A stretch of 63,898 nucleotides of DNA, the filler included, from Folioceros fuciformis (Eukaryota): the NCBI GenBank assembly GCA_049999805.1. It is 4 parts of 3 records of this genome, joined end to end, with 100 filler letters (N's around TTAATTAATTAA, not from the genome) between each part and the next. Parts side by side here need not be neighbours in the genome. Positions count along the whole stretch, not along the records: positions 35,919 to 61,449 come from JBNGIO010006316.1; 3 more parts are not named here. One strand, 5' to 3'. Shown one piece after another: positions 21,294 through 63,898 of this stretch. Made by a program: the position numbers and the translations under genes. Below the pieces are notes generated by a model. That model was not told where the DNA came from, ran no database searches, and saw nothing but the letters and a program-made list of their open reading frames with translations. Each line of letters opens with the position of its first letter. The first letter of the stretch is position 1.

Positions 21294-21337
21294 NNNNNNN
21301 NNNNNNNNNNNNNNNNNNNNNNNNNNNNNNNNNNNNN

Positions 21338-21349
21338 TTAATTAATTAA
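21338..21349. other. Assembly linker TTAATTAATTAA inside an N gap (also 35863-35874 and 61494-61505)
   Basis: The same 12-mer, with stops in all six frames, sits centred in three 100-nt gaps; a scaffolding artefact. Confidence 0.9.
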
Positions 21350-21393
21350 NNNNNNNNNNNNNNNNNNNNNNNNNNNNNNNNNNNNNNNNNNNN

Positions 21394-35355: not shown

Positions 35356-35918
35356 GATATCTTTTCAATAGAGTATGAACATGTGAAGAGTACCGTTGAG
35401 ACTGACTAGTATACCATTTTGAGCTGAAATCCCAACCCATATTTTTTTGCAGGTGGGTCCAAGAGCATAGCCCTACTCAAATTTCAACCCACACCTTGTA
35501 AGACATCTAAAGATCCAATGGAAATACATTGCTGAAAAAGAGATACCACAAATTGTAGGAAGGAACCAACCCTATTCTTATGGATGTGTTGGGGTTTATC
35601 ACAACTCTTGCTAATTGAGACTCATCAAGCTATGGGTAAGGATTTTCAGCACTTTATCAATAGCTATCGTGCAAGGGCTGTCGACGGCTTTACTATTAGT
35701 TGTTTCCCAAGAGGTGTACTTATGAGCAATTGTTGCATATGCCTCAAGATGAAGGATTATGTGCATGGAGCTGTGAAACATTTGAGGATCTAACATACTC
35801 AAAGTTGTTCTCATGTTANNNNNNNNNNNNNNNNNNNNNNNNNNNNNNNNNNNNNNNNNNNNTTAATTAATTAANNNNNNNNNNNNNNNNNNNNNNNNNN
35901 NNNNNNNNNNNNNNNNNN

Positions 35919-48272: not shown

Positions 48273-51200
48273 CTATGCCTTGGCTCTGGAAGCCAGGCCA
48301 GTTTCAACTCGTCGGATCTCGAATATCAGCATCCTCCACATCTTCAAAACAAACATTTCAGCCTCATCGTCCAAAACCCTTTCCAAGTGCCCAAGCATGT
48401 TGGAAGCCGTTACGTGCTTTTGCGTGTGATTCACGATGAACTCAACCAAGGTGTTTTCTTCCTCCCCCAAAAATTCAGTGATCTTCTTAGCTATCCACGG
48501 CCGCATCCTCTCGTGCAGGTCATGCTGCCACAACAGAATCACCACAAATAATATGAGCGATTGTGAAATGAAATCACAGCCACACGGAGATCAAGCTCCC
48601 GGTACCTTGTCATAGATTTTCCAGTCCACCGGATATGCAAACAGTTCGTCCCTCGTCTTGGGTATACTGTCGATGAGTTGCTTCGTATCCATGACTTTGG
48701 GTTCCGTCACTTTTCCCTTATCCGACTGCCTCTCTTTGTCTCTGTCGTGCTCCTTATCCCTCTCCCTATCCCTATCCCTATCCCTATCCCTATCCCTATC
48801 CCTGTGCCTGTCCCTGTCCCTGTGACTGTGACTGTCCCGGTCCCTGTCCCTCTCTCTTTCTCTTTCCCTGTCCCGGTCCCTGTGCCGCCCCCTGTCCTTC
48901 TCCCTTCGACCTTTATCTCGTTCACCCCCTCGATCTCTCTCTTTCCTGTTTCTATCTCGGTCCATATCATCCGAGGGCCCACAGTTGGACAAGCTCTTCG
49001 CAAACTCTGCAGCTGCCGCAAGATTTGAAGCGAAACCAGGAGCCTGCTGATTAGACTGCTTGGAAGGAGCTACAGCCTGCATCTCCTCCGCACTGTAATC
49101 AATGGGAACCAAAGGCCGTAGCATTCGCTCCTTAGGAATTTCCTCTTCATCCTCCTGATGAAACACCGATGGAACAGCCGCACGCCTCCCCGATCCCATC
49201 AGACCAAATCCCAGCTTTCGAGGAGCAGAGTTACTTGAGTTACTTTTCAGTTTCAGGTCAGACTCATTAGCTGCCACGATATCCCCTCCTACTTCAGGCC
49301 TTGCAGTATCATGGCCACCATTGCTGGAGGTCATGAGCACCTCGGCTGAAAGGCCCCACAAGCCCATGTCAGTACCAAACGTACTTTCACCAGCAAGACT
49401 CTTAAAAAAAAGGCAACAGGCGGACACATGGAATGCTTCCTACGTGCTCACTTACCCTGTGGCTGTTCTCCTTCTGAGACACTTCCAGGACTTGCATCCT
49501 TCACTGGGACATGCTGTTGTGAAGGTACTCCAACATCCACAACCGCTGCAGCCGCAGGTACCTCATGGTCTTCAGGCCGGTACACATCTACTTCCATCGC
49601 ACAAGGGCTCACTTGCTTTGTTTTTTGTCTTTTCACTTCAAGCACTTCCTGCTCCTCTCTCACAACATCTGCCAAATCTTCTTCCTTTTCCCTTTGCCTC
49701 CTCTTCCTCTTCTCATCTTGCAAACTCTCCCTGTAACGCCTCTTTCTCCACTCCTCCTCATCACTCTCCTCCTCTTGCTCTTTTACCTCCCTGCGCCTAT
49801 CTCTTTCCCTATCCCTTTCACGTTCCCTGTCATGCGCTCGCTGACGTTCTCTTTCCCTCTCTCTGGCCTCCCACTCCCTTTCCCTCTCCTCATACAAACG
49901 CTCTGCCTCCCTGACCCTGATCTCTCTTTCCCTCTCTCGCTTCACCCGCTCCCTTTCTCGTTCTCTCTCGTATCGTTCCAACTCCCTATCCTTCTCCCTT
50001 TCCATCTCCCTCTCGCGATCTCTTTCCTTGTCTCTCTCACTCCGCCTGCCCCGCTCAGCAGCAGGACCACCATCAGGTCTTTCTACTTCTGCCGGTCCCT
50101 TGTGGTCCATTGTTGCTTCCTCATCGAGCTTTGCAGAAGAATCATCTACAAATCACAGAGAAACAGCCATTTGCAAACATGAGAACAAACAAAAGCGTGA
50201 ACCCCAGCCCTCTGGTGACAAATATCCAAATTTTTCAGCTTCCTTACTTCCATCCAGATTCGAATCACCCTCCTTGGACTTCGAAGTTGGATCAGCATTT
50301 GAGGTCCCCTTGCTAGAGGCATCTAAAGATGCAGTGGGTGGAAGAGGCTGTGGCATCAATCTTGCCCTGTAATCAAGTGTCAGGGACACATTGCTAAAGT
50401 TGCAGTGGATAACCAAGTACAAGCTGCCATCCGCAAGAACAAACAATTGGCTTCCCTCGCTGGACCCACCTTTCTTGCAGCAATGCAGTGAGCAGTTGGA
50501 CAGCCGAATTATCCGATTCCACATCCAGCTCGGTAACAAGTCCAAATTTTTTTGCATCATCCTCTGCTCCATCTATCTTTGCCACAAGCAGCGGATACGA
50601 TGGATGGTCCACAACCTCTACGCCAGGTGCAGCCTCCTCCTTGATCTCAGCGATAGCTTCCTCTTTGAGGATTCTCTCCCTTTCTTTCCTTCTGGCCACA
50701 TATCGCTCGAGATATTCACGAGTCGCTTGATTCACATTCAACTGCAAAAGCCAGGTAACAATAGTCATTCATATTTTACGAAAAGATGGCAGAGGGTCCT
50801 GGCAGCCCTGCCCTGATACGTTCGTGTGCGTGGCAGAACATGCAGACAGATGCAGGTGATCAGAGGAGTGAAAGAGGTACCACGAGCTCCTGGCCGTCGA
50901 GGGCAAACTTGTTGAGGAGCCTCAAAGCTCTGAGAACACCTTCAGCAGATTCAAATTCGCAAAACCCAAATCCCTTGGGCGACCCAGTAGTGGGATCCTG
51001 CGCCCTTTTCCAGCTTTTGATAGGACCACACAACTGCTCACCAAGGGAAGTGAAGTGAGTGAGAACTTACACCAAAAACGCACAACGTGGTACAAGGGAC
51101 GACAAAGACCTTAGCTGGTGGAGTGATGGATTCCTTCATCACAGCCGTGACGCATAAATTTGCAGCCTCACCTCCAGAATGGACCTTAAGACGTCATCCT

Positions 51201-51645
51201 CTACAGTTGTAGAAATTTTCCCCACGTAAACTGTGGTGTGAGGCTTTTCAGGTGGGGCGACAAGCTGACCCACACCCTTGGCAGCAAGATCCGAGAGTAT
51301 AATTCCAGGAGGTGGTTTGAGAACAGGAGGGTGAGGTCGAAGGCCGTTCCCAAGTGGCCTTGGCAGTGGCATGCTGCCGGTCGGCGACGGTGAAGGCCCG
51401 AGCATAGGACGTGGCAGGTACCCTGGGGCAGGTGGAGGCATTGTCGGAAAAGCCGGCGCCGAGTAACGCGGGACACCTTTCGCAGCAAGCTCGGGCACAG
51501 TCATTCCAGAAGGAGGCTGCAGAACAGGAGCATGAGTGCGAACTCCGTCGTTAACCGGTCTCGTAAGAGGCATGGTGGTGGCCGCCGGTGGTGGTGAAGG
51601 GCCGAGCATAGGCCGGGCCACATACCCTTGAGCAGAGTGAGCCAT
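48273..51645 (-). CDS. RBM25: RNA-binding protein 25 (Pro-rich, RRM, RE/RD-rich, PWI domain); start codon uncertain
   Basis: TTVYVGKIS (RNP2), KGFGFCEF (RNP1), long RE/RD tracts, LVPIDYS, LIDSIPKT, and a PWI domain (RPWIAKKITEFLGEEE...FVLKMWRMLIFE). Confidence 0.93.
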
Positions 51646-52399
51646 GGTAGGAAACGGCCGGTGCAGAGAAGCGCGACCTAACGGTAGCGGGCGGCACCAA
51701 CCGAGATATGGTGGCGGCTCCCCCGGCTCAGCATATATAGTTACAGCCGGACCCGGCACCCGAGAAATGGCAATAGAATGCGTTCCGACCCAAGAGCGAT
51801 TGCTGTGGCAGACACAAGCGCAAAGCTAGGGTTTCCTACAAACAAGCCCTGTGGTATGACATCCCAGGCCCAGCCATGGCCGCTCCACAAGATTGATCCC
51901 CCGGACGCGTACTCTTCCTCCTGCGGACGCCACAAAGGCGGCACACCGTAGTCGATGCCTGCCTGGCTTGCCCTCAACTGCCTGCTGTCGTCTCCCGTAA
52001 ATGAAAGGCAGGCAAGCTACAAGATAGCTCCCTCCTTCACGCAAATCTTACAACCTGCGTGTGCTTCCAGAGTGTGGTCCGAGACAACCATAGGTGACAG
52101 CAACCGACTGGCGAGACCGGCGCGCTGGACAAATGCATCATGCTCCTCCGTCGAAGCCAATCCCTGGCATCCCCGAAAACATGGTAGTATCCTCGTGGCA
52201 GGCGTCCCTAATATGCTTGCCCAACTCCTGATTATAGTAGCTATGGTCATGCGGCAGGAACTAATTACATACGAGAATTAAGTACAGTATCGAGAGTGTA
52301 CTTCGAAAAGCCGGAATTGTGGAGCCGACGCTTAATGTTCATATTGGAAAGGAAATAATTAAGATTTTACTCCCAAGGAATAAATTATTTAATCAATTT

Positions 52400-52660
52400 T
52401 TTATTATTGAAAAAGAGATGGAAAGTCCATCAACTCTAAAGATTGGAGGAAAAGAGAATAACCCGAGCAGGGCCAAACGCAAAAACGTACTAGCCCTTTG
52501 AATATCATTTTCAAAAACTACTTATTGCTCCTAAAGTGGTATGATTGTGGAATAACAAAAAGTTTACATATCACCAGTACGAAAGAAGCCGCTTGTTACT
52601 GTTGTACAAACAGCGTTGGCCAATGCTCTTTGAAAAGCAATGCATACACGTTGTCTGTTG
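52400..52660 (-). mobile_element. 5'-truncated copy of the CRE-like element (RLE C-terminus plus 3' UTR)
   Basis: RQRVCIAFQRALANAV and a 3' UTR colinear with 22650-22950, ending TTTCCATCTCTTTTTCAATAATAAAAAA. Confidence 0.75.
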
Positions 52661-52760
52661 TCGAAAGCTGAATACACGTTGTCGAAAGTTGAATACACAT
52701 TGTCCAAAGCTGAATACACATTGTCGAAAGGTGAATAAACGTTATCTAAAGCTGAATACG
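52645..52760. repeat. 21-bp tandem repeat (~5 copies)
   Basis: AATACACGTTGTCGAAAGCTG at 52671, 52692, 52713 and 52734. Confidence 0.9.
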
Positions 52761-53469
52761 AAAGAAGACACATCACTCTATTTAACATGGTGATTTGTGT
52801 TTCTCCTAAGACCTAGGATCCCGAGGCCTTGTCCAACCGCAAGCTCTGCCAACTAAGGGTGCTCCAAACTGATATCACAAGCAAGGCTTATATGAGTAGC
52901 TCAATGATAGATATATGTCTACATATGCAAGTTGCAATGGCAAAGATGCAAGGTTCTACGATGCAAGGCAACTTGCACATGTCTATGCAATTGCAAGACA
53001 TTATCGATAGAGATTCTCAAGGCGGAGAAGGCAACAGCTGGTGAAGGAGACATCATGGGTTGAAAGGGAACCTTAACTAGATAGTATTTTCTTTGCCTTA
53101 GCCCTAACAAATAGACACACATCTATACAGTAGATTAGGCATATCATCAGCTAATAGGAAGGATGGCCTTTGGACCAAGTATGTAGGTATACCATGGTAC
53201 TAAGTTATTAAGTACCAAAGTCTCATGACATAAATCGGACCTTACTATACTTTATTAATTGAATTCTTCTTCTTCTACTTCCATTTACTTCATTATGCCA
53301 ACACACTTTGAATACCCAAAAGAAGAAAACAAACTTTGTAACCAACATTAAATGTAGTTTCATTTATTGGGTTTTTGTCCTATGCACAAACTTTTATGTA
53401 TCCTCATCCTTCGTCTCCTTAATAATACTAACACACTAGAAGCAATGTGAGTCACTTCGTGAACGGCTC

Positions 53470-53800
53470 CCTATTGTTAATGGAAGCAGGAAAAGCTCAT
53501 TGAATATGATACATAGATGGTTACCTACTATTGATGGNNNNNNNNNNAAAAGCTCATTGAATATGATACATAGATGGTTACCTACTATTGATGGAAGGAG
53601 CAAAAGCTCATTGAATAGTCATGATACATAGATGGTCCCCTCCTGTTGATGGAACGAGCAAAAGCTCATTGGATAGTCATGATCCATAGATGGTCCCCTC
53701 TTATTGATGGAAGGGGCAAAAGCTCATTGAACAATCATCATACACATAGGGTTCCGTACAATTGATTGAAGTAGCAAAAAAGTCATTAAACAGTCACACA
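53470..53800. repeat. ~58-bp tandem repeat, probably inside the 5' LTR of copia-1
   Basis: AAAAGCTCATTGAATAGTCATGATACATAGATGGTCCCCTCCTRTTGATGGAANGAGC at 53602, 53660 and 53718, with shorter variants upstream. Confidence 0.85.
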
Positions 53801-54133
53801 AGAGATGGTTAGAGAGTTCAATAGTCCTTGACACTTGCACAAACAAGTAGCTTTTGGTGTGAACACGACAAAGCTACAAGGTATTAGAAAAGCAAGAGCC
53901 GTTATATTAAGTTTAGGAACAAATGGTACAGGTAGTTTCGCATTTCCAATTTAGACGACCGCTTAACATTTTGTATAAGACATTCGCTTTTCAATAAACA
54001 ATATCATTTTTTGCTTGACACTCGTGAGGACGTTTCTCTTCCATGGCTCACAAGAACATCCGTTGCCTTAGCCTTCTCAATTTGATCCTGCCATAGCTAG
54101 TTTCATAGCTTTTATGGTATCAGAGCCAGTTCA

Positions 54134-54655
54134 ATGAGTCCTTGGCAAATGCGATGGGTGTCAATCCACCTTGAATACATCACTTTCACCGTAAAGATGC
54201 CAAGACAAAGATTTCATGCACTCGACACGCAATCTTCTCTGACGCGCCCATCTTCTGCTTGCTTGGACCAGATTCTTTGTTCCTTTTGCAGATCTCTGGA
54301 GAAGAGGGCGACTTCGTCAACTCCCCGGAGTCATCCCACACGCTTTCGGACGCTGACACGTGAATGCCGACACCGACATCCCGCCATTGCGTTTGTTCTT
54401 CACTATGCGACCGGGAGAGGTTTACATACGAAGAAATCCCCAACTCCAAGACGTTCCAATGAAGATAAAATTGCATCTCTTCATAGAGAGCTCTACACTC
54501 TACAAAAGCGTGTAAGCGAGCAGGACGCATTCATCACAAGGATATTTGAAAACATTGAGGTTCTTCAGTTGTCTTGTGTAGAACATTTTCAAACGGATAT
54601 CAAATGTGTCAGTCTTTCTCGAGCCAGAACATACATGTCTAGCACCATGTTGTAG
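54134..54655 (+). CDS. Copia-1 leader ORF (ORF0), unknown function
   Basis: 173-aa ORF directly after the PBS, with CSFCRSL, a coiled-coil-like stretch and LSCVEHFQTDI; these motifs are shared with the copia-2 ORF0. Confidence 0.55.
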   Translation: MSPWQMRWVSIHLEYITFTVKMPRQRFHALDTQSSLTRPSSACLDQILCSFCRSLEKRATSSTPRSHPTRFRTLTRECRHRHPAIAFVLHYATGRGLHTKKSPTPRRSNEDKIASLHRELYTLQKRVSEQDAFITRIFENIEVLQLSCVEHFQTDIKCVSLSRARTYMSSTML

Positions 54656-55987
54656 TTTCTTGTTTATAATAGATAGTTCAGACTCTGAGGATGAAATTGT
54701 CGTAGACATTTCATCTCTCTTTGCTGAACCTCCTAACCTCTTTGTCTGGGATTTCTCCCCGAGCAATCTCTTAAAGAGACAACGTCCGCAACAATCAATC
54801 CCCAATGGGACTCTTAATCCTGTAGCCATGTCTGGAGCCTCATCCTCTGTCCCCGTTGTTCCTACCTTGAAAATTGAATTCAAGGACAAGGACAGGTTTA
54901 ATGGCACAGACTATAACTTTTGGGCTATGAGACTTACCCAAATTTTTGAGGAGAATGAGCTGTTGTCCATCGTGGATGGCACAGAACCTAAGGTGACAAC
55001 ACTTGCTAGAACGGCTGACGAAATCCTAGCCTGGGAGCGTACGGATAGACGAGCACGTTCCATACTCATTGCTGCCTTAGACAGAAATGTCATGCCACAC
55101 ACAATAGATGTGAAGACATCGGCAGATGTGTGGAAAGTTTTTCAGTCAATTTATTAGGATAAGAGCTCAGCATCTCTAGTGCATGCGCACAGAGATTTTT
55201 TCAATTTGAGAATGAGGGACAATGAGCCTGTTGAGGCTTACATCAACAAGTTTAGGACTCTTCGTGCTAATCTTGCGTATTGTGGCACAGTGCTCACGGA
55301 AGTACAAGCATCGAGAAGCATCCTAGCTTCACTTCCAGAGAGCTATCAGCACTTTGTTGGCAGTCAAAATGCCACAATACATGTAGGTGTTCAGGTGGCA
55401 ACATCAAGTCAGCCACCAAAAGTGACTCTTGAGGAAGTCATTGGTGCCCTCAAATCTGAAGAACACACAAGGAGCTTCCACAAGAATAAGAGTTCCACTA
55501 CCAACAACACAAGAGTGTTCTTCACATCAAGAGGACGAGGTAGCTTTCGTGGGCATGGCAAAGGACGCGGTTCCTATACAAACTCATAGCGTGATGTGAC
55601 CACAAAGAAGACCTTTGTTTGCAACTGGTGCAAGATACCTAGACATTATGAATGTGACTGCCGCAAGAAGAAGGGAGGTGAACCCAGACGTGAACATCCT
55701 CCAGAAAGCAACATCACTACCAGGAAGACTAAGCAGCCCACCATCCTGGCAGTTTGTTTGTCATCCACCCAGGTACAATCTGACACATAGTTCCTCGACT
55801 CTGAAGCCACAAGTCACATTTGCTTTCACAGGAGTGCTTTTTCTTCTTTCACTCCTTCTACTGATGCAAAACAGTTTGTCTTACTGGGAGACAACAGTGC
55901 ACTTTCTATCAAAGGCTCAGGCTCAATTATTATTTCCTTGCCAAATTCTTCTAGACTCAGACTCACAAATGTTCTTTATGTCCCTTC

Positions 55988-56326
55988 TGAAGGATCGCTA
56001 GGAGCTACATGGTGAAGGAGAGGAGAGGAGGAGGCAAGGAGGAGAGGAGAAAGAGAGATCTCACAGCGTCTCTCACAGCTCTGTTACAAAGGGAGCTCAA
56101 GAGGGTATTTATACCCTCTAGAAAAGCTCCCAAGGAAGCTTCACAAGAAGCTCACAGGAAGCTATGCAGGAAGCTTCCTAAAGATTAGCTTAAGCTAATC
56201 TAAACTAATGATACTTAATTAGACATTAATATTAGACTAGTTACATTAGTCTAGTTAAACTAATCACATTAGTTTAATTAGACTGATCACATTAGTCTAA
56301 GCACATTGGGCTTTAATAACCCTACA
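55988..56326. mobile_element. Solo LTR (339 bp) inserted in copia-1 pol
   Basis: TGAAGG...CCTACA termini with a perfect 5-bp TSD CCTTC (55983-55987, 56327-56331). Removing it restores LYVPSMTKNLMSV. Confidence 0.92.
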
Positions 56327-56704
56327 CCTTCAATGACCAAAAATTTGATGTCTGTTCTAAAGTTGTCATAGGAACATTATTACCAAGTGTGCTTTGATCA
56401 GCAAGGGTGTTATGTCACAAGTACCAGGTCTGGACATGATCTTTTCTTAGGCTCACGTTTTCATGACTTGTATCTCCTGAATGTTAAAATTGTGATCAGT
56501 ACCATTCAGTCAGTTCATTCTACAGAAGTCCCCTCCACACAATTGTGGCACTGTCGTCTTGGACATGTCGACTTCCAACGTCTTAATTCCCTTGTCTTAG
56601 GTGAGAGTCATAGAGAGCCTCTGGATTTTTCTTTTGTCAAAAATACTTTTTGCGAAGCATGTCAGTTGAGTAAGGCTCACTCGCTGCCTTTCAAGGATGT
56701 GGCC

Positions 56705-59700
56705 TGTTAAGGGGGGGGGGGTTAAACCTTAGCCTATGTATAGGTTATTTATCGACAAGGTATGGGTAGACATATCTGGATTAGGGTTGACGATGAACAG
56801 TCGTGATATATGTATTTAAAGACAATTTTGACATTATTGATATTCATTCTGACTATTCTTGCTAGGCTATCTTTGCTCCTTGTCTCGTTATATGGTATCA
56901 GAGCATCAGATGCTCTGCACCTTGGGCAAAGCTTTACATAATGCCGAGGTGCAGGGGTTGTAGAGACTTGCGTCAAGGTGAATTATCCCCTGCACAAAAT
57001 TACAATAGGGGATTTCAGCCACGACCCAAAGCACCATTTCTTTTTGATACGGTGCTGGATCTCTACGAGCAACAATACCCCGCCCTCTAGCTGCAGAAGT
57101 TTGTTGTAGAACACTCTCGAAGGACACCTTTTACTAGGTCAAGACCACTTGCAAGAGATTCAAACTCTGAAGTTGTGAGACCAGATTATTCTCAACGTTC
57201 TGCAACAACGAAAGACACACCTGTAATCAATCCTCATACGGGCGTTCAGATTATTGCTAATAAAACACAAGACTCTCTTACCCATGTTGAGAAGGTGTTG
57301 TCCACGATTTTACAAAATCAGGTCTTCCTCAAGAACAGGATTCACAGTCTGGATTCAGTGGTAGAGAGTGTTATTCTTTCCTGCAAAGACCAACTCTAGA
57401 AAGACATAGGCAAAGTCATTGATCTGTTAAAGGATATGGACATCTGCCTACAAGCTCTGGAACATAACACCTTATCTAACGATTCTGCATCTAGCTCACA
57501 GGTCCTGTGAAATCTTCCGCTGCTAGGGAGCAAGGCGATTTAGGCACATCAGCATCCCTTATGCACCTGATCTGAATAGGCACTATAGGCTTGGCGTTGC
57601 TTGGGTCAGATCTATCTTTATGTTGCTCATTGGCTTGCTTTAGAGTGTCTGTTCGCAAGACAATGACACGTTGGTCAGGTTGACCTAACCGTTTAACTGA
57701 AACGCCATAAAAAAAGGAATAGTTGCTGTTTTTTAGGGTTTCTTGCATGAGGTGCAACGTTTCATGTTACAACAGGAAGAAAAGGCTGAGGGGTTCAGCA
57801 GGGGTTGGGCATATCATCTAAACCAACCCAGGTTGACATTCTCAGCGTCTCTCCTACATATCATGATTAGTCCCTAATTATGAGCTATACATTGATACAT
57901 GAGTACTTAGCTTTGTTACCAGAGCCATAGCCCCCCCTACAACGTGATCAGTATTCATGTCCATCGATTCGTTGTTGCACTCGCTGAATAATTCCTTTGC
58001 ACAGCTTAGCCTACAACCACCAGTGGACCCATACCACCCGTTGTCCCGATACCACCTGCATTCAGAGTAACCATGGCTATAACCACTCCGTCATTTACGT
58101 CCGAGTTAAAGGAAAAGGATAGGTTTAAAGGGAATGGCTATCCTGTCTGGCGAGTGAGAATGAAAGCAACCTTACTTGCCCATGGTGTTTGGAGCACAGT
58201 TAATGGGACTTATGCTCAACCAAACCAAAACGTTGTCCCACCTCCTGATCCAGATGATATTGCCCAGTGGAACCAACACAATGCGATTGCTGTTGCTCTC
58301 CTCATTAACGGACTTGATGCAGATCTCGTCCCTGACGTCGAGTACCTCGACAAGGCAAATGAAATCTGGGATCAGTTGGAAAAGACCTACAAAGTGCAGA
58401 ACCTCATGACCCTCTGTTCTGTGAGGCAGGAATTCTACGCATTAAAGATGAAGGAAGGGGATAAAGTGGCAACTCATACTAGCAAGTTCCGGCACCTTTG
58501 GGCCTAGCTCATGGCCATGACTGGAGACAAGATGTCGGAGGTAGATGTTGTCGAACAGTTGCTCACTTCACTCCCTACTTCCTATCAGACCTTTGTCACA
58601 AGCCAGAACGGACCACTTCGAGTTGCTGGAAGTGCAGTGACCGTCACCTTGGAAGAGGTGATTGGTGCACTATTCCAGGAAGAGCAGAGCCGTGCCTTCA
58701 CCTCTGGATCCTTTAAGGGCAAGGGGGAAAAGGTGTTAGCAGCTAATTTCCGCTCAGGCAAAGGCAAAGGGAAACTTAAAGGAGGCAATTCACCTGGACA
58801 GAAGGGGGAATCCTCAAGCTCTACGAAGCAACCAGGCAACTACAATTGGTGTGGGACGCCTGGTCCCTGGGCACGAGAGTGCCGGAAAAAAAGAGTAGGT
58901 GAGCCCCAAAAACAACCAAGGCCAGCTGCAAGTGTTGCAGTTAAGGAAAAATCAAGAGAATCAAAAGCACCAGTAAAGATTCTTACTGTTTGCCTTTCAA
59001 GTTCTCTGAAAGATGATGGGTGCTGGTACCTTGACTCTGGAGCGACCACCCATATTTGTAAGGACATGAAGTTGTTTTCCTCTTTGCACAAAGGCCCAGT
59101 TATTGACAAAGGTTTCCTGGGAGATCAGCAAAGCAAATCTAGTTTGCACATAGAGGGTAAAGGCATGTGCACTTTCAGATTAAGTGATGGCACTGACCTA
59201 AGGCTCGAAGATGTCCTCTTCGTTCCTAGCATGCCTAAGAACCTCATGTCTATGAGTCAACTCATGCGTCTACGTACCTTCTACATGATAGCAGATCATG
59301 AACAGTACTGCTTTTACAGAAAGTCCTCTCTCGACACATGCGTGTTTAAGGGGATTCTCGAGCATGACCTGTACAGGTTAAACATAGTATGCACCCGGGC
59401 ATCATCCACTTGTTAGTATTCTGCCCGGTCCACTGGTGTTCCCACTATCAGTCCTCAGCAGGAGGCTATATTGTGGCACGCTAGATTAGGGCACGTAAAT
59501 AGAGCTAAGCTCATCGACATGTCTACAATAGAATGCCACAAAGAACCTCTTGCCTATTTGCGAGCCATGCATATTGGCGAAACAGAAGGAGTCTCCCTTC
59601 CCAAATGCACCTGCACATAGAGCTACAGAGGTACTTGGCTTAGTACATGCTGATATTTTAGGAAAGATCCATGAACCCTCCCTTGGGGGCTCTTGTTACT

Positions 59701-60725
59701 TTTTCACCCTCACAGATGATTATAGTCGTTACACATGGACCTTTCTCATGCACTCCAAAAGTATTAATTTCAACTATTTCAAGGCCTGGCTCACCACAGC
59801 TCAGAGGCAAACAGGCAGGTTACTAAAAATATTGAGGACAAACAACGGGATAGAGTTTGTTAACTCATCTTTTGAAGAATTTCTTCAAGAGGCTGGGATC
59901 TTGAGGCAACTCACAGTTCCCTATACCCCACAACAGAATGGTGTCTCAGAACGCAAAAAACCAGACATTGCTTGGGATGACACGAAGCATGCTGCTTTGG
60001 GCAGGCTTACCTCAGGGTTATTGGGCCGAAGCAGTGGTGGCAGCCACGTACATCCTCAATAGGGTCCTAACTAGTTCAGACCCTCACTAGACCCCCTATG
60101 AGGTGTACTGGCAAAAGAAGCCTAGTCTGCTGCATCTGAAGGTTTTCAGTCCCAAAGCCTATGCTCACATCCCATCTGAGAAAAGGAAGAAACTAGATCA
60201 ACGTGCATAGGCTTTCATTTTTGTGGGATACAGCGAGCAAGCTAAGGCCTACAAGCTTTTCAATCCAGTCACGGAGTCCATTGTGCTTGCAAGAAGTGTC
60301 ACCTTTCTTGAACCACATGCTCCTTCACCAACTGTTGAGTATGCTTCCATCAGTCCTGTAGAAAGTCTTCCTCCTCCTCTAGATTCAGTTGTGGACTACC
60401 ATCTGGATGATACTGATCCTGATGAGCTTGATTCTTTGGCTCCTTCCGTCCTTCCTGCTGCTCTTATCTCAGGAGCTAATGATCCTCCTCCAGATCCCCC
60501 GGATTCTGAAGCAAAGGGGGAAGAAGGTCAATAGGAGCAACAACAGGAGGCTGATGAAACCGCTTAGCATGAAGATGATGGTGATGCTGACCGTGCTGCT
60601 TCAGAACCTGAGGAAGACAATGCAGAGCCAGCCCTTATTCTGCGCCGCTCCACACGCCTCAGGCCACCCCCTGAACAGTGGAAGGAATCCCGATATCAGT
60701 CAATAGACTTCCGCACTCACCTTAC
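56705..60725 (+). mobile_element. Ty1/copia element 2 nested in element 1 (short 5' LTR ~56705-56892, PBS, ORF0, gag, PR, IN; RT, RH and 3' LTR missing)
   Basis: Starts TG right after copia-1 integrase codons. PBS 56893; gag ATG 58073; WYLDSGATTH; LWHARLGH; VHADI, DDYSR, PQQNGVSER; VGYSEQAKAYK. Confidence 0.9.
56941..57510 (+). pseudogene. Copia-2 leader ORF (ORF0), 190 codons with two TAG interruptions
   Basis: A single frame from ATG 56941 (MPRCRGCRDL) to TGA 57508, with TAG at 57088 and 57397; contains YPAL and VILSCKDQL*KDI. Confidence 0.6.
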
Positions 60726-60727
60726 TG

Positions 60728-61387
60728 CCCTTGTACCTCCAGCATTGCGCTCTAAGTTAGATCCTAAGGCATCAAGACATGTCTTTGTTGGCTACTCAGA
60801 AGAATTGAAGGGTTACAAGTTGTTCAACCCTGTCAATCGTCAACTCACCATCTCTCGGAGTGTGATTTTTCATGAAGCAGCCCTTCTTCGCCGTCATACC
60901 ACAGCTTTGCTTCCGGATGCTACTCCTTTACCTTCTTCTATACACGGCATCGAAGATTCAGCACTCATGGATATTGATGAGATTAGTATCTTTGACGACG
61001 AGGATGCTTCCCCTTCTCAGGAGCCAACAGGAGCAGTTTCAACTTTTGATCATCCAGATGGAGAGGATGACAAGGTTTCGGATGTAACGTATCCTTCAAC
61101 ACCTTTGCTATCACCAACAGGGCCTTGTGACGCCAGTGATTCTTCGGCTCTGTCTAACATAGATGTTCCTTCAACTGAGCCCATACCCACGTCTGTTGTC
61201 GAAAGTAACCCTATTGAGATAACTTCACCACTCTGTCGGTCCACCCGAATTCGACACCCTATGCATGAGTGGAAGGAGCCTCCCTTTTTTGCACATACAG
61301 TCTTTACTGAATTTTCTCCAACTACCGTCCTTAGTATCACAGCTTCCCTTGGCGAACCTCTAACTTACACTGAAGCTTTAGCTGGCC
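60728..61387 (+). mobile_element. Second copia integrase C-terminal/linker fragment (probably copia-1 resuming)
   Basis: RSKLDPKA..FVGYSEELKGYKLF..SRSVIFHE...RSTR...EPLTYTEAL repeats a region already present in copia-2. Confidence 0.8.
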
Positions 61388-61550
61388 TGATTAGGATTAG
61401 ACGCTAAAGGCGCGCCATTGTATTAGCATAAAGAAAAGGTGAATACAGCNNNNNNNNNNNNNNNNNNNNNNNNNNNNNNNNNNNNNNNNNNNNTTAATTA
61501 ATTAANNNNNNNNNNNNNNNNNNNNNNNNNNNNNNNNNNNNNNNNNNNNC

Positions 61551-63898
61551 ATGTCATGGTATCAGAGCGATACGACGATCTGTGTCGTGCGTTAACTTCC
61601 AGCGCACGAGCAATCTGGATCGGCTGTGTGCATTATGGTGCACGCAACGCGCGTGAAGTTCTAAAAGCCGTATCGATCTCATTTGCTAAACTTTTCTGCA
61701 TCTTGAATACTGGACGGGTTGTAGGAGTGCGCAGGGAATCTTTCTCGTGAGCAGATGCCTCCAGGCACCCTGCCTGAGAGAATGCTCACGAATAGATCAC
61801 TTCCTGTATCACCATGCCTGGACAGCGGAAGCAGGAGCGCTTAGCAAGACGAGCACGGCGTCAGCAGGAGTTTCAAAAATGGATTGACGAAAGAGAAGAG
61901 GCTTACCAGCAATCTCTTGCACCTACGCGGTGGCAGCAAGTGTGGGTTCGGATCTCGATTATGCTTGGTTTGATGGCGCACAACGTCCTTCAAGGTTATG
62001 ATGCGCTAGACGGGTATAACTTCAGCAAGTTTGACGTCTCCGACCTTCTGTGAGAGCGATGAGACTTCTTAGTAGGAGCATCTTCTATGCATTTCTACCA
62101 TCGACTGAAGTCGACCTGTATGCCAACCGGCACGGACACCTTTGTGCCCTTTTTGCGAGAGAGCCGGCGCACCTGCAGCCAACAGCGGCATTAGCACATC
62201 AGCATACAAAATACATACTAAACAATGTAATCTCACAGTTTCCCATATCAAGCAGGGACATAGTCCAAATCACCTTACGCATTCAAGAAGAATCTGCAGG
62301 AGAGCACTTATTTTGCAGTGCGTCTCATACTTCTGTTATGTTTTGAGAGAAGTCCCAAAATGGCTGCCAATGCACCTGTACAACAAACTCTCTCACTAAA
62401 TATTGCTAAGGAAGACAAGTTCGATGGAACCAACTTCCATGTCTGGAGAGACCGCATGGTGGAGATCCTCAAGTCTCGACGACTTTGGGGATATGTAGGA
62501 GGTCTTGGCAAACCTCCTGTGGTCATTCCCAAGCCAGTGGGAGCACCTGATTTGGCCGTCTGGGAAGAAGCTGACCAAACGGCCAGAACGCTCTTACAGC
62601 TGAGTGTGAAGAGCACCCATATTGGGGTCTTCCAAGGTGCACAAACCGCCGAACAATATTGGCAGCAAGTAAATGAAGTCTATGACTCTAGGGACTTGAT
62701 GCTACAGACGTACGTTCTCAAACAGTTTGCAGGACTTAAAATGACAGAGACGGATACAGTGGACAAACATGTCCTGGATTTCAGAAACTGGAGGGCGAAG
62801 TTAATCTCTGCCGGTTTTGACTTGGCTGAAGAATTGGTAGCAGTAATTTTGCTGACTACATTGCCCGACTCCTGGACTGGAGTCGTCCACAGCCTGCAAG
62901 AAGTACGCCCAATCACAGTTAACCGAGTGATTGCGGCCATGTTGACTGAAGAATCCAGAAAACGGATTGCCAGCACAAATTTGAGCAGTGACCGAGCACT
63001 GTACTCAAATGACAAGGCCCTTTGGTTAAACAAACCTGGACGGGGTCGTGGCCGAGGAAGCCGTGGAGGATTCATGAGAGGAGGCCGTGGCGGTAGAGGT
63101 GGCCGAGGAGGTTTTAGACCTCAGAACTCAGCTGGTGGCAGACCAAGACCACCATGTGGCCACTGTGGTATGACGAACCACTCTTGGGAAACCTGCAGGA
63201 CGAGATTGGCAGGTGAACGTGGCCATTCTGGCCCCTCTGGACACTTGGCNNNNNNNNNNGGCAGTCCACAATTGCGCTGTCTTCAGCTGAGGCGGAGTAC
63301 AAGAGCCTCACAGAGGCATGCAAGGAGGTCACCTGGACAGTGGGAGCTCTCACTGAGCTTGGAGTGCCACAAACTTTGCCGGTGACCTTATTCTGTGACA
63401 ATCAAAGTGCCATAGCACTTACAATGAACCCCAGGTTCCACGCACGCACAAAGCACGTTGAAATACAACACCACTACATCAGAGAAGTGGTAAATGCTGG
63501 AACTGTCAGAGTCAACTACTGCCCAACGGAGCTGATGACCGCAGATATTTTGACGAAGGGCCTTGGGCGTGTGAAGCACTACCAACATGCATCCGGGCTC
63601 GGGCTCCGTGCATCAGGCAAGGATCTAAGGTGGAGCGCGGCTCCTGATCCTGCAATCGGCAAGGGCAAGGCAGTGGCGGCACACGAAGACGAAGATGGAG
63701 GCGAAGATGAACCCTAATTCAAGCTTCTTTAGAATAGGGTTCAAGTTTCTTATTTAAGTTTCTTTTAATTTATTTTAGGTTTACATTTTTGCACCTAGAA
63801 TAGATTATATATATATATCCTAAATACACTAACCCTGCACCTGAGTGGGAGTGATAGGTTATATTTAATTTTACCTTTTATTAGTTCAGGTTAGGGTT
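61551..63898 (+). mobile_element. Ty1/copia element 3 (PBS, leader ORFs, gag, [gap], RNase H, PPT, start of 3' LTR)
   Basis: PBS 61557; gag ATG 62360 (KFDGTNFHVW), CGHCG..H....C; RNase H SSAEAEY, CDNQSAI, HARTKHVE, ADILTK; purine tract GAGTGGGAG then TG at ~63852. Confidence 0.9.

What the first reader, a model, noticed from the sequence alone, without database searches (positions are those of the whole stretch)
54134..57510. Conserved, unrecognised ORF0 between PBS and gag in two related Ty1/copia elements
Seen: both elements have a 170-190-codon sense ORF starting just after the PBS. Copia-1 (54134-54655) reads MPR...CSFCRSL...HPAIAFV...LQKRV...LSCVEHFQTDI. Copia-2 (56941-57510, broken only by two TAGs) reads MPRCRGCRDL...YPAL...FV...LKNRI...LSCKDQL*KDI. 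The order CxxCRxL, (H/Y)PA, coiled coil, LSCxxxxQxDI is shared although I see no obvious DNA-level similarity between the leaders. The two gags are of one lineage (VTLEEVIGAL, NWC..CRKK..GEP, IL.VCLSS). Known: copia elements normally carry a single gag-pol ORF; extra 5' ORFs are best known in Ogre/Tat gypsy elements, and SIRE copia extras lie 3' of pol. Inference: this is a selected accessory protein (e.g. anti-silencing, targeting or particle-related) of a seed-free-plant copia lineage.
Basis: partly seen in the sequence, partly recalled or inferred. Interest (0 to 1): 0.8.

Follow-up and report, generated by a model that had tools for sequence, protein, structure and literature searches.

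The report
Leader ORFs in two decayed copia elements
Two broken copia retrotransposons each have a long stretch between primer site and gag that contains a sizeable reading frame, but the likeness between the two frames is only borderline, so a shared extra protein is not shown.

Summary
C1 has an intact 173-codon sense ORF (54134-54655) starting 7 nt after the PBS. C2 has a 190-codon frame (56941-57510) broken by two TAGs.

"Conserved" is not established. BLASTP between the two gives E = 0.11. Shuffle, block-shuffle and unrelated-ORF controls put the likeness at about p 0.002-0.09, depending on the scoring. Other frame pairs of the same two leaders score as high. The leaders share no DNA likeness. 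A third, equally distant copia in the window (C3) has a 0.8 kb leader with no such ORF.

Pfam, PDB, the ESM Atlas and a phmmer run (C1 only) over 1.84 billion proteins found no relative of either ORF.

Some signals favour coding. The C1 ORF is longer than chance (10 of 1000 dinucleotide shuffles). The C-terminal part of C2 folds as two confident amphipathic helices.

The decisive test could not be run: open frames and dN/dS across family copies need a genome, and none is held. Contigs of other copies show that both leaders belong to multi-copy families and that gag starts further upstream than assumed.

Best reading: ordinary long untranslated copia leaders with incidental ORFs (0.55). A fast-evolving leader-encoded protein remains possible (about 0.25).

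The parts
54115..54126 (+). PBS of copia element C1 (TGGTATCAGAGC)
   Evidence: Pattern search. The same 12-mer opens the leaders of grapevine Noble copia elements (PMC2576258, passage seen).
54134..54655 (+). C1 'ORF0': 173 codons plus TAG, intact.
   Evidence: Length reached by 10 of 1000 dinucleotide shuffles. No Pfam family. 0 phmmer hits in 1.84e9 proteins. AF2 mean pLDDT 47.6.
54582..55157 (+). C1 gag frame, open from 54582 and overlapping the end of ORF0 by 74 nt. ATA ATA at 54666-54671, where one other copy has an ATG. ATG at 54828. Stop at 55155-55157.
   Evidence: Retrotran_gag_2 E 2.5e-9. Other-copy letters table 5c. Codon score of 54666-54827 is best in frame.
55983..56326 (.). Insertion of about 344 bp of a very high-copy short repeat inside C1 pol. 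Not part of ORF0.
   Evidence: summed word depth about 42,000 against about 100 for the flanks. One contig each in X1 and X2 skips 55982->56327.
56706..56892 (+). Inferred 5' LTR of C2 (about 187 bp, starts TGTTAAGG), inserted into the pre-integrase region of C1.
   Evidence: C1's gag_pre-integrs ORF ends at 56710 and the PBS follows at 56893. The boundary is inferred because no 3' LTR lies in the contig.
56893..56904 (+). PBS of C2
56941..57510 (+). C2 'ORF0': 190-codon frame with in-frame TAGs at 57088-57090 and 57397-57399; ends with TGA.
   Evidence: A window of 190 codons with 2 or fewer stops occurs in 91 of 1000 dinucleotide shuffles. AF2 helices 107-151 and 155-181 with pLDDT 83-96. 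No Pfam, PDB or database relative.
57511..57956 (+). Remainder of the C2 leader, closed in all frames.
   Evidence: codon scores are negative in all three frames.
57957..58507 (+). N-terminal part of C2 gag. The ATG at 57957 is out of frame with the ATG at 58073 in the window copy only. All other contigs differ by one base in length at 58026/58027, which puts 57957 in the gag frame.
   Evidence: table 4: X1 38.3 + 12.2 of depth 50.5; X2 25.8 + 38 of 63.9.. Retrotran_gag_2 E 2.1e-21.
58511..60062 (+). C2 gag C-terminal part, Pol beta-barrel domain and integrase core (copia domain order). The element is cut by a contig end at 61449.
   Evidence: Pol_BBD 5.6e-19, rve 4.7e-13.
61450..61549 (.). 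Spacer of 44 N + TTAATTAATTAA + 44 N. It reads as a contig-joining linker, so C3 is not nested in C2.
   Evidence: the same 100-base spacer occurs at 21294 and 35819. That such linkers join contigs is recalled.
61557..62359 (+). C3 PBS (61557-61568) and its 0.8 kb leader. The longest sense ORFs are 79 codons (61814) and 95 codons (62059).
   Evidence: No likeness to either ORF0.
62360..63249 (+). C3 gag
   Evidence: Retrotran_gag_2 E 4.2e-26. 29% identical to the N-terminal part of C2 gag, E 3e-17.

Best explanation
The two 'ORF0s' lie in the long leaders (PBS to gag) of two decayed Ty1/copia copies. C2 is inserted into the pre-integrase region of C1, and both are cut off by a contig end. Most likely these leaders are untranslated, as in other plant copia families. 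They would act in cis on the genomic RNA: tRNA-Met primer binding is shown by sequence, while packaging and dimerisation signals are inferred. On this reading the reading frames are incidental and are not a protein inherited from a common ancestor. C1's 173-codon ORF would be a chance survivor in a stop-poor stretch. C2's frame is already closed by two stops. The shared motif order is what two ORF translations with similar compositional layout (basic and Ser/Thr-rich first, Leu/Glu/Lys-rich later) can give by chance.
For: Likeness is at chance level or borderline:
- BLASTP E 0.11.
- 89 of 2000 shuffles reach the local score and 139 of 2000 the semi-global score.
- 5 of the 35 other frame pairs of the same two leaders score as high or higher.
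- The C-terminal halves alone are reached by 241 of 2000 shuffles.
- The gag N-terminal parts of the same two elements score z = 19 in the same kind of test (BLOSUM62 11/1).

The leaders share no DNA likeness.

C3's gag is as close to C2 (29%) as C1's is (27%). C3 also has a 0.8 kb leader, but with no comparable ORF and no likeness.

No relative was found in any library:
- Pfam.
- phmmer of the C1 ORF against 1.84e9 proteins: 0 hits.
- Word-indexed searches of 5.8e9 proteins with both ORFs: none.
- PDB sequence search: E >= 0.6.
- ESM Atlas: recognition 1427 and 1586, where 91 of 100 proteins of known families reach 2300; best hits 0.81-0.82.

C1's ORF0 shows no codon-position GC pattern (0.46/0.49/0.44 against 0.48-0.57/0.37-0.49 for the gags) and a codon score near 0. 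Its AF2 mean pLDDT is 47.6.

About 14 ATGs precede gag in each leader.

Paralogous contigs over the leaders carry 14 gaps in 1564 aligned nt. Those over gag-pol carry 18 in 5169 nt. I added these by hand from the 24 DNA-run pieces listed table 8, counting X1/X2 duplicates once, leaving out the identical self piece and records 19 and 20, which straddle the leader/gag border; 3932 further pieces were not listed.

Long copia leaders treated as untranslated are in print. In grapevine Noble the leader is 269-695 bp, begins with the same PBS, and varies by large indels (PMC2576258, passages).
Against: - C1's ORF is longer than expected: 10 of 1000 dinucleotide shuffles and 1 of 1000 mononucleotide shuffles reach it.
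- C1's ORF starts at the second ATG of the leader, counting the one that overlaps the PBS, and ends just before the likely gag start.
- With soft scoring the likeness reaches z 3-4, with 1 of 500 shuffles reaching it. Only 1-3 of 112 unrelated-ORF controls reach it.
- C2's ORF0 has a gag-like GC1>GC2 pattern and a positive in-frame codon score.
- C2's residues 107-181 are predicted from the single sequence as two helices at pLDDT 83-96. Their helical hydrophobic periodicity is reached by 62 of 5000 shuffles.
- Both models have the same rough layout: two short helices, then a helix of about 45 residues that ends at the LSC motif.
- The protein databases barely hold this lineage. C2's gag-PR finds only 2 proteins, so the empty searches weigh little.
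Confidence: 0.55

Rival explanations
1. A real, fast-evolving accessory protein encoded in the leader and homologous in C1 and C2. It would have a basic, disordered N-terminal half and a long amphipathic (coiled-coil-like) C-terminal helix. It would be translated from an early AUG of the genomic RNA, with gag made by reinitiation, leaky scanning or from another RNA. Its role (particle, targeting, anti-silencing) is pure inference.
For: C1 ORF length p about 0.01. C2 has only 2 stops in 190 codons, in a copy whose gag-pol is also broken. Likeness p about 0.002-0.03 with soft matrices and unrelated-ORF controls. C2's C-terminal helices are confident and periodic. The predicted helix layouts are similar. 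Both ORFs sit right after the PBS on the sense strand. Extra ORFs of LTR retrotransposons are known to diverge beyond recognition within a lineage (PMC6317226, passages; Retrosat2 abstract).
Against: Standard scoring is not significant. Other frame pairs score as high. C3 has no counterpart. C1's composition looks non-coding and its fold confidence is low. The position relative to gag differs: about 10 nt before the likely gag ATG in C1, 446 nt before it in C2. About 14 upstream ATGs precede gag. No copy-level evidence of selection exists. The features were picked by eye after the fact.
Confidence: 0.25
2. C1's ORF is not a separate gene but an N-terminal extension of Gag. In the family, gag would open a few bases after the PBS, and a one-base frameshift in this decayed copy splits it. 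C2's frame would be unrelated.
For: The ORF0 frame and the gag frame overlap, both open, over 54582-54655. That is the pattern a recent frameshift leaves. This copy has other lesions: stops at 55155, 55587 and 55788. The gag frame upstream of ATG 54828 scores as coding.
Against: One other copy has its own ATG at 54666 in the gag frame, which suggests that gag starts there (table 5c). No length difference within 54582-54655 is among the 12 listed (93 more were not shown). An extension of about 230 residues before the DUF4219/gag_2 start has no counterpart in C2 or C3.
Confidence: 0.1
3. Each family has its own leader ORF, born or captured independently. The ORFs would be real but not homologous, as proposed for the heterogeneous extra ORFs of SIRE and other lineages.
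For: The extra ORFs of 582 copia elements fall into 45 mutually dissimilar groups (PMC6317226, passages). The C2 helices look protein-like and the C1 length is unusual, while the likeness between them is weak.
Against: No relative of either ORF was found outside these elements, so capture is unsupported. C2's frame is closed. There are no copy-level data.
Confidence: 0.07

Closest known systems
Untranslated leader (UTL) of plant Ty1/copia elements, e.g. grapevine Noble and Tvv1 (PMC2576258, passages seen)
   Same: It begins with the PBS TGGTATCAGAGC(C) and lies between the 5' LTR and gag. It is hundreds of bases long: Noble 269-695 bp; here about 0.54-0.70 kb in C1, 1.05-1.17 kb in C2 and 0.79 kb in C3. 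Copies differ by indels (table 8).
   Different: The C2 leader is longer than the Noble range. C1's leader is almost filled by one open frame. No such ORF was mentioned in the passages I read for Noble.
Retrosat2 ORF0 of rice (PMC3485330; abstract seen. That it is a Ty3/gypsy element and that ORF0 lies 5' of ORF1 are recalled.)
   Same: An extra sense ORF called ORF0 in an LTR retrotransposon, with no relative outside the family and strong divergence between homologous elements.
   Different: Per the abstract, ORF0 sequences were compared across Retrosat2 and its homologues in several genomes; a Ka/Ks calculation is listed in its Methods outline. Here there is a single decayed copy per family and no such evidence, and the superfamily is copia.
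eORF-5'F of Ogre/Tat Ty3/gypsy elements, and eORFs in general (Neumann et al. 2019, PMC6317226, passages seen)
   Same: A sense ORF upstream of gag inside the element. eORF proteins are heterogeneous and mostly lack known domains.
   Different: Their working definition needs at least 250 codons; here there are 173 and 190. In the passages read, the only eORF named as typical of a copia lineage is the 3' sense ORF of SIRE (74% of its elements).

Membership tests
Ty1/copia LTR retrotransposon (the host elements) | PBS complementary to the 3' end of tRNA-Met, directly after the 5' LTR | tested here: met
   TGGTATCAGAGC at 54115, 56893 and 61557. It is identified as the PBS in PMC2576258. A full-length tRNA-Met PBS is the common copia type (PMC6317226).
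Ty1/copia LTR retrotransposon (the host elements) | Copia-type gag, with integrase ahead of reverse transcriptase | tested here: met
   Retrotran_gag_2 in C1, C2 and C3. In C2 the order is gag, Pol_BBD, rve, SH3_retrovirus, with no RT before the contig end at 61449. In C1, gag_pre-integrs follows gag. RT itself was not seen.
Ty1/copia LTR retrotransposon (the host elements) | Two LTRs and a target-site duplication | not testable with these tools
   No 3' LTR lies in the window: the contig ends at 61449 and no long direct repeats were found.
Conserved additional ORF (aORF/eORF) of an LTR-retrotransposon family | Present and open in all or most copies of the family (criterion in PMC7264820) | not testable with these tools
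   No genome is held. Read laying shows paralogous contigs over both leaders (87-88% alike, with 5 and 7 gaps) but gives no sequences. Collection scans found no copies.
Conserved additional ORF (aORF/eORF) of an LTR-retrotransposon family | Sequence conservation comparable to that of the element's other proteins | tested here: not met
   ORF0 against ORF0 gives E 0.11 and z about 2-4. The gag N-terminal parts give E 2e-13 and z 19.
Conserved additional ORF (aORF/eORF) of an LTR-retrotransposon family | At least 250 codons (working definition of Neumann et al. 2019) | tested here: not met
   173 codons in C1; 190 with two stops in C2.
Untranslated leader of copia elements | Lies between the PBS and the gag start, with no frame kept open across related elements | tested here: inconclusive
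   C2 and C3 have no unusually long open frame (298 and 341 of 1000 shuffles reach theirs). C1 does (10 of 1000). Whether C1's frame is kept open in other copies could not be read.

The most novel reading that the evidence does not exclude
A lineage of Ty1/copia elements in this plant carries a rapidly evolving protein gene in the leader, directly after the PBS. The protein would have a disordered basic half followed by a long amphipathic helix, and would be translated ahead of gag from the genomic RNA. That would be a 5' accessory cistron in copia, comparable to Ogre ORF1 or Retrosat2 ORF0 in gypsy elements.
Probability: 0.25. Interest if true: 0.6.

Novelty: already known. Interest (0 to 1): 0.28.

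Why it matters
If ORF0 were real, copia elements of an early-diverging plant lineage would encode a third protein ahead of gag. That would bear on how such elements balance translation against packaging and how they deal with host silencing, and it would make a 5' accessory cistron in copia directly testable. As the evidence stands, it is a lead and not a finding: two decayed copies, a borderline likeness and no copy-level test. What this check does add is a corrected anatomy of the two elements: the nested insertion, the contig join, and gag starts that lie upstream of the assumed ones.

Tried and rejected
- **Whole genome.** None is held.
- **Relatives of C1 ORF0.** Word-indexed protein search: none. 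phmmer over 1.84e9 representatives: 0 hits. Viral contigs: none. Metagenome contigs: none.
- **Relatives of C2 ORF0.** Protein search: none. The 102-aa open piece in viral contigs: none. In genome contigs there was one 27-residue match, in a bacterial collagen-like protein of a Bacillota MAG. It was seeded by an exact 8-mer and I rejected it as chance.
- **Relatives of C2 gag-PR, to reach related leaders.** Viral contigs: none. A four-row alignment was too variable for the tool. A two-row alignment in metagenome contigs found nothing, with only 2 patterns used. The protein search found 2 Logan proteins, at 71% and 45% identity.
- **Sequencing runs.** No RNA holder is listed. The one run guessed to be RNA (X4) laid only 5 contigs, none on either ORF0. 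This is no evidence on expression.
- **Synonymous versus non-synonymous changes.** I read 6 of the 40 best-supported letter differences (2201 more were not shown) that fall inside the ORF0s: 54507, 54517, 54615, 57284, 57298, 57445. Read by hand, they are 5 non-synonymous and 1 synonymous. I rejected this as a test. These are places where the window copy differs from most other copies, so they are private post-insertion changes and neutral under any reading. For 9 listed places of C1 gag-pol (two of them in one codon) read the same way, the count is 5 to 3.
- **The two TAG codons of C2.** No difference is listed at either among the 40 shown. This proves nothing, because most rows were hidden.
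- **Depth along the stretch.** Not used; the tool says contig depth cannot rank parts.
- **Fold search.** The C2 model against the PDB gave no match (best E 8).
- **Antisense and other leader ORFs.** No Pfam family.
- **RNA folding of the leaders.** z is -1.8, -2.4 and -1.8 against shuffles. This is a weak signal and fits any reading.
- **Earlier findings of this scan.** None.
- **Supplementary tables of Neumann et al. 2019.** These list eORF positions by lineage and may bear on whether copia 5' eORFs are described.

Full report
**Anatomy**

The last 10 kb of the window holds three + strand Ty1/copia elements. Each is marked by the primer-binding site TGGTATCAGAGC, at 54115 (C1), 56893 (C2) and 61557 (C3). 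Each has a copia-type gag: Retrotran_gag_2 with E 2.5e-9, 2.1e-21 and 4.2e-26.

C2 continues through a Pol beta-barrel domain, an integrase core and two SH3-like integrase tails. C1 runs through gag and a pre-integrase domain and stops at about 56705. There a short sequence starting TGTTAAGG runs to the C2 PBS. I read this as the roughly 187-bp 5' LTR of C2, inserted into C1. The boundary is inferred, because no 3' LTR is in the window.

The 100-base block at 61450-61549 is 44 N + TTAATTAATTAA + 44 N. It recurs at 21294 and 35819. I take it to be a six-frame-stop linker that joins contigs; that use is recalled. So C2 is cut by a contig end, C3 starts a new contig, and C3 is not nested in C2.

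All three copies are decayed. The gag-pol of C1 has stops at 55155, 55587 and 55788 plus a 344-bp high-copy insertion. The gag-pol of C2 is split at 58508 and 59417 and beyond.

**Observation**

C1 has an intact 173-codon ORF at 54134-54655. C2 has a 190-codon frame at 56941-57510, 36 nt after the PBS, closed by TAGs at codons 50 and 153. The leaders have no DNA likeness (best blastn E 0.33).

**Is it more than chance?**

ORF length:
- C1's 175 open codons are reached by 1 of 1000 mononucleotide shuffles and 10 of 1000 dinucleotide shuffles.
- C2's and C3's longest open frames are ordinary (298 and 341 of 1000).
- A 190-codon window with 2 or fewer stops occurs in 91 of 1000 shuffles of the C2 leader.

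Likeness between the two ORF0s:
- BLASTP gives E 0.11.
- Smith-Waterman with BLOSUM62 11/1 scores 40 against 30 +/- 4.8, reached by 89 of 2000 shuffles. The semi-global score is reached by 139 of 2000.
- Over the 12 scoring schemes tried, z runs from 2.2 to 4.0, and 1-20 of 500 shuffles reach the score. A reversed-sequence control sits near or below the shuffle mean in 11 of the 12 schemes; under BLOSUM62 11/1 it scores 38 against an observed 40.
- Shuffling within blocks of 10-30 residues, which keeps local composition, gives z 1.4-3.2, reached by 0-47 of 500.
- In 112 comparisons of the two ORF0s with 56 unrelated open stretches of the window, 1-3 reach the observed z.
- Among all 36 frame pairs of the two leaders, the ORF0 pair scores 40. 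Five other pairs score 40-44.
- The C-terminal halves alone are not significant (241 of 2000).
- As a yardstick, the gag N-terminal parts of C1 and C2 are 27 of 101 identical and score z = 19 and E 2e-13.

So the likeness sits at roughly p 0.01-0.1. It was picked by eye after the fact, and it is far weaker than the likeness of gag.

**Protein-likeness**

No search found a relative of either ORF:
- Pfam.
- PDB sequences, E >= 0.6.
- The 5.8-billion word-indexed protein set.
- For C1, phmmer over 1.84 billion representatives.
- The ESM Atlas gave low recognition values (1427 and 1586) and first hits of 0.81-0.82, the level that shuffled sequences reach a third of the time.

These blanks weigh little. 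The databases hardly contain this lineage: C2's own gag-PR finds only 2 proteins.

C1's ORF0 has flat GC by codon position, a codon score near zero and a low-confidence model (mean pLDDT 47.6).

C2's ORF0 looks more like a protein. Its GC1>GC2 pattern resembles gag and its in-frame codon score is positive. Its C-terminal 75 residues are predicted from the single sequence as two helices at pLDDT 83-96. The helical hydrophobic periodicity of that stretch is reached by 62 of 5000 shuffles. However, the best 45-residue window of several other leader frames comes close: 73 against 66, 59 and 55.

Both models share a rough layout of two short helices followed by a helix of about 45 residues that ends at the LSC motif. 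This is suggestive and not a test. The fold search found nothing.

**Other copies**

Two DNA runs of one sample hold the stretch. Laying their contigs at 80% likeness or more shows that both leaders belong to multi-copy families. One contig covers 54069-54439 with 47 differences and 5 gaps. Another covers 57138-58021 with 102 differences and 7 gaps (table 8).

In the listed pieces, the leaders carry 14 gaps in 1564 nt and gag-pol carries 18 in 5169 nt. I added these by hand, counting X1/X2 duplicates once and leaving out two pieces that straddle the leader/gag border, and 3932 further pieces were not listed. The contig sequences themselves are not returned, so I could not test whether ORF0 is open in other copies, nor estimate dN/dS.

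Two things could be read from the contigs:
- All other contigs differ from the window by one base in length at 58026/58027 (X1 38.3 + 12.2 of depth 50.5; X2 25.8 + 38 of 63.9). This puts the ATG at 57957 in the gag frame. So C2's gag probably starts 116 nt upstream of the ATG at 58073.
- One other C1-family copy has an ATG at 54666-54668, where the window has ATA at 54666-54668. It is in the gag frame and is followed by an in-frame deletion (table 5c). The stretch 54666-54827 scores as coding in that frame.

With these starts, C1's ORF0 ends about 10 nt before gag, and C2's ends 446 nt before gag. Those are two different arrangements.

**Third element**

C3's gag N-terminal part is as close to C2's (29%, E 3e-17) as C1's is. 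C3 also has a 0.79-kb leader, but its longest sense ORFs are 79 and 95 codons and show no likeness to either ORF0.

**Literature**

- Neumann et al. 2019 (PMC6317226, passages read) found extra ORFs of at least 250 codons in 582 of 5410 copia elements. These fall into 45 dissimilar groups, and only the 3' sense ORF of SIRE is named as typical of a copia lineage.
- Vicient and Casacuberta 2020 (PMC7264820, first part read) require that a conserved extra ORF be present in all or most copies of a family.
- Long copia leaders treated as untranslated are described for grapevine Noble: 269-695 bp, with the same PBS and size variation by indels (PMC2576258, passages).
- Retrosat2 ORF0 is the nearest named analogue (abstract only).
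- Searches for a copia ORF0 or 5' eORF found no description of such a feature.

**Verdict**

The ORFs exist as described, but "conserved" rests on a borderline likeness.

- **Best reading (0.55):** ordinary long untranslated leaders that act in cis, with incidental ORFs.
- **Homologous, fast-evolving leader protein (0.25):** not excluded. The length of C1's ORF and the C2 helices keep it alive.
- **C1's ORF as a frameshifted N-terminal extension of Gag (0.10):** suggested by the 74-nt overlap of the two open frames.
- **Independent family-specific ORFs (0.07).**

Copy-level analysis in the full genome would decide among these.

Noticed in passing
window 21294-21393, 35819-35918, 61450-61549: Identical 100-base blocks of 44 N + TTAATTAATTAA + 44 N. 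They look like six-frame-stop linkers joining separate contigs, so the window is a concatenation and neighbours across these blocks need not be adjacent in the genome.
   Followed up: partly
window 55983-56326: A short repeat of about 344 bp inserted in C1 pol. Its summed contig word depth is about 42,000 against about 100 for the flanks, and one contig in each of two runs skips it. It is a very abundant short element (MITE- or SINE-like), not characterised further.
   Followed up: partly
window 60054-60783: C2 carries two copies of the integrase SH3-like tail (ORFs at 60223 and 60745, both PF25597). One contig in each of two runs skips 60053->60784. This is a 730-bp internal duplication or foreign insert private to some copies.
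   Followed up: partly
window 57957-58073 and 54582-54828: In both elements the gag frame extends upstream of the obvious ATG. In the window copies this is hidden by a one-base length difference in C2 and by ATA in place of ATG in C1. Gag in this group may have an extra N-terminal stretch of about 40-55 residues, acidic or Pro-rich.
   Followed up: partly
window 53465-53780 and 52658-52762: Tandem repeats of about 58 bp (4-5 copies) directly upstream of C1, possibly inside its 5' LTR, and of 21 bp (about 5 copies) further upstream.
   Followed up: no
run X3 laid on window 54000-61400: Differences in this run are dominated by C>T (425) and G>A (370), unlike the two other DNA runs of the same sample. 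It looks like a bisulfite or enzymatic-conversion library and could give the methylation state of these elements.
   Followed up: no
window 56893-56920: In C2 the 3' half of the PBS (CAGAGCAU) pairs with AUGCUCUG just downstream, forming a hairpin in the minimum-energy and centroid folds. This may be a primer-site-occluding stem. C1 does not show it.
   Followed up: no
window 48273-51759 (- strand) and 1-47000: The rest of the window is gene-dense host DNA. I read the translations by eye only; they look like an RS/RD-rich splicing-factor-like gene next to C1, glutamate synthase, a MAP kinase, an ankyrin-repeat protein and a PPR protein. The copia cluster sits at a contig end beside genes.
   Followed up: no
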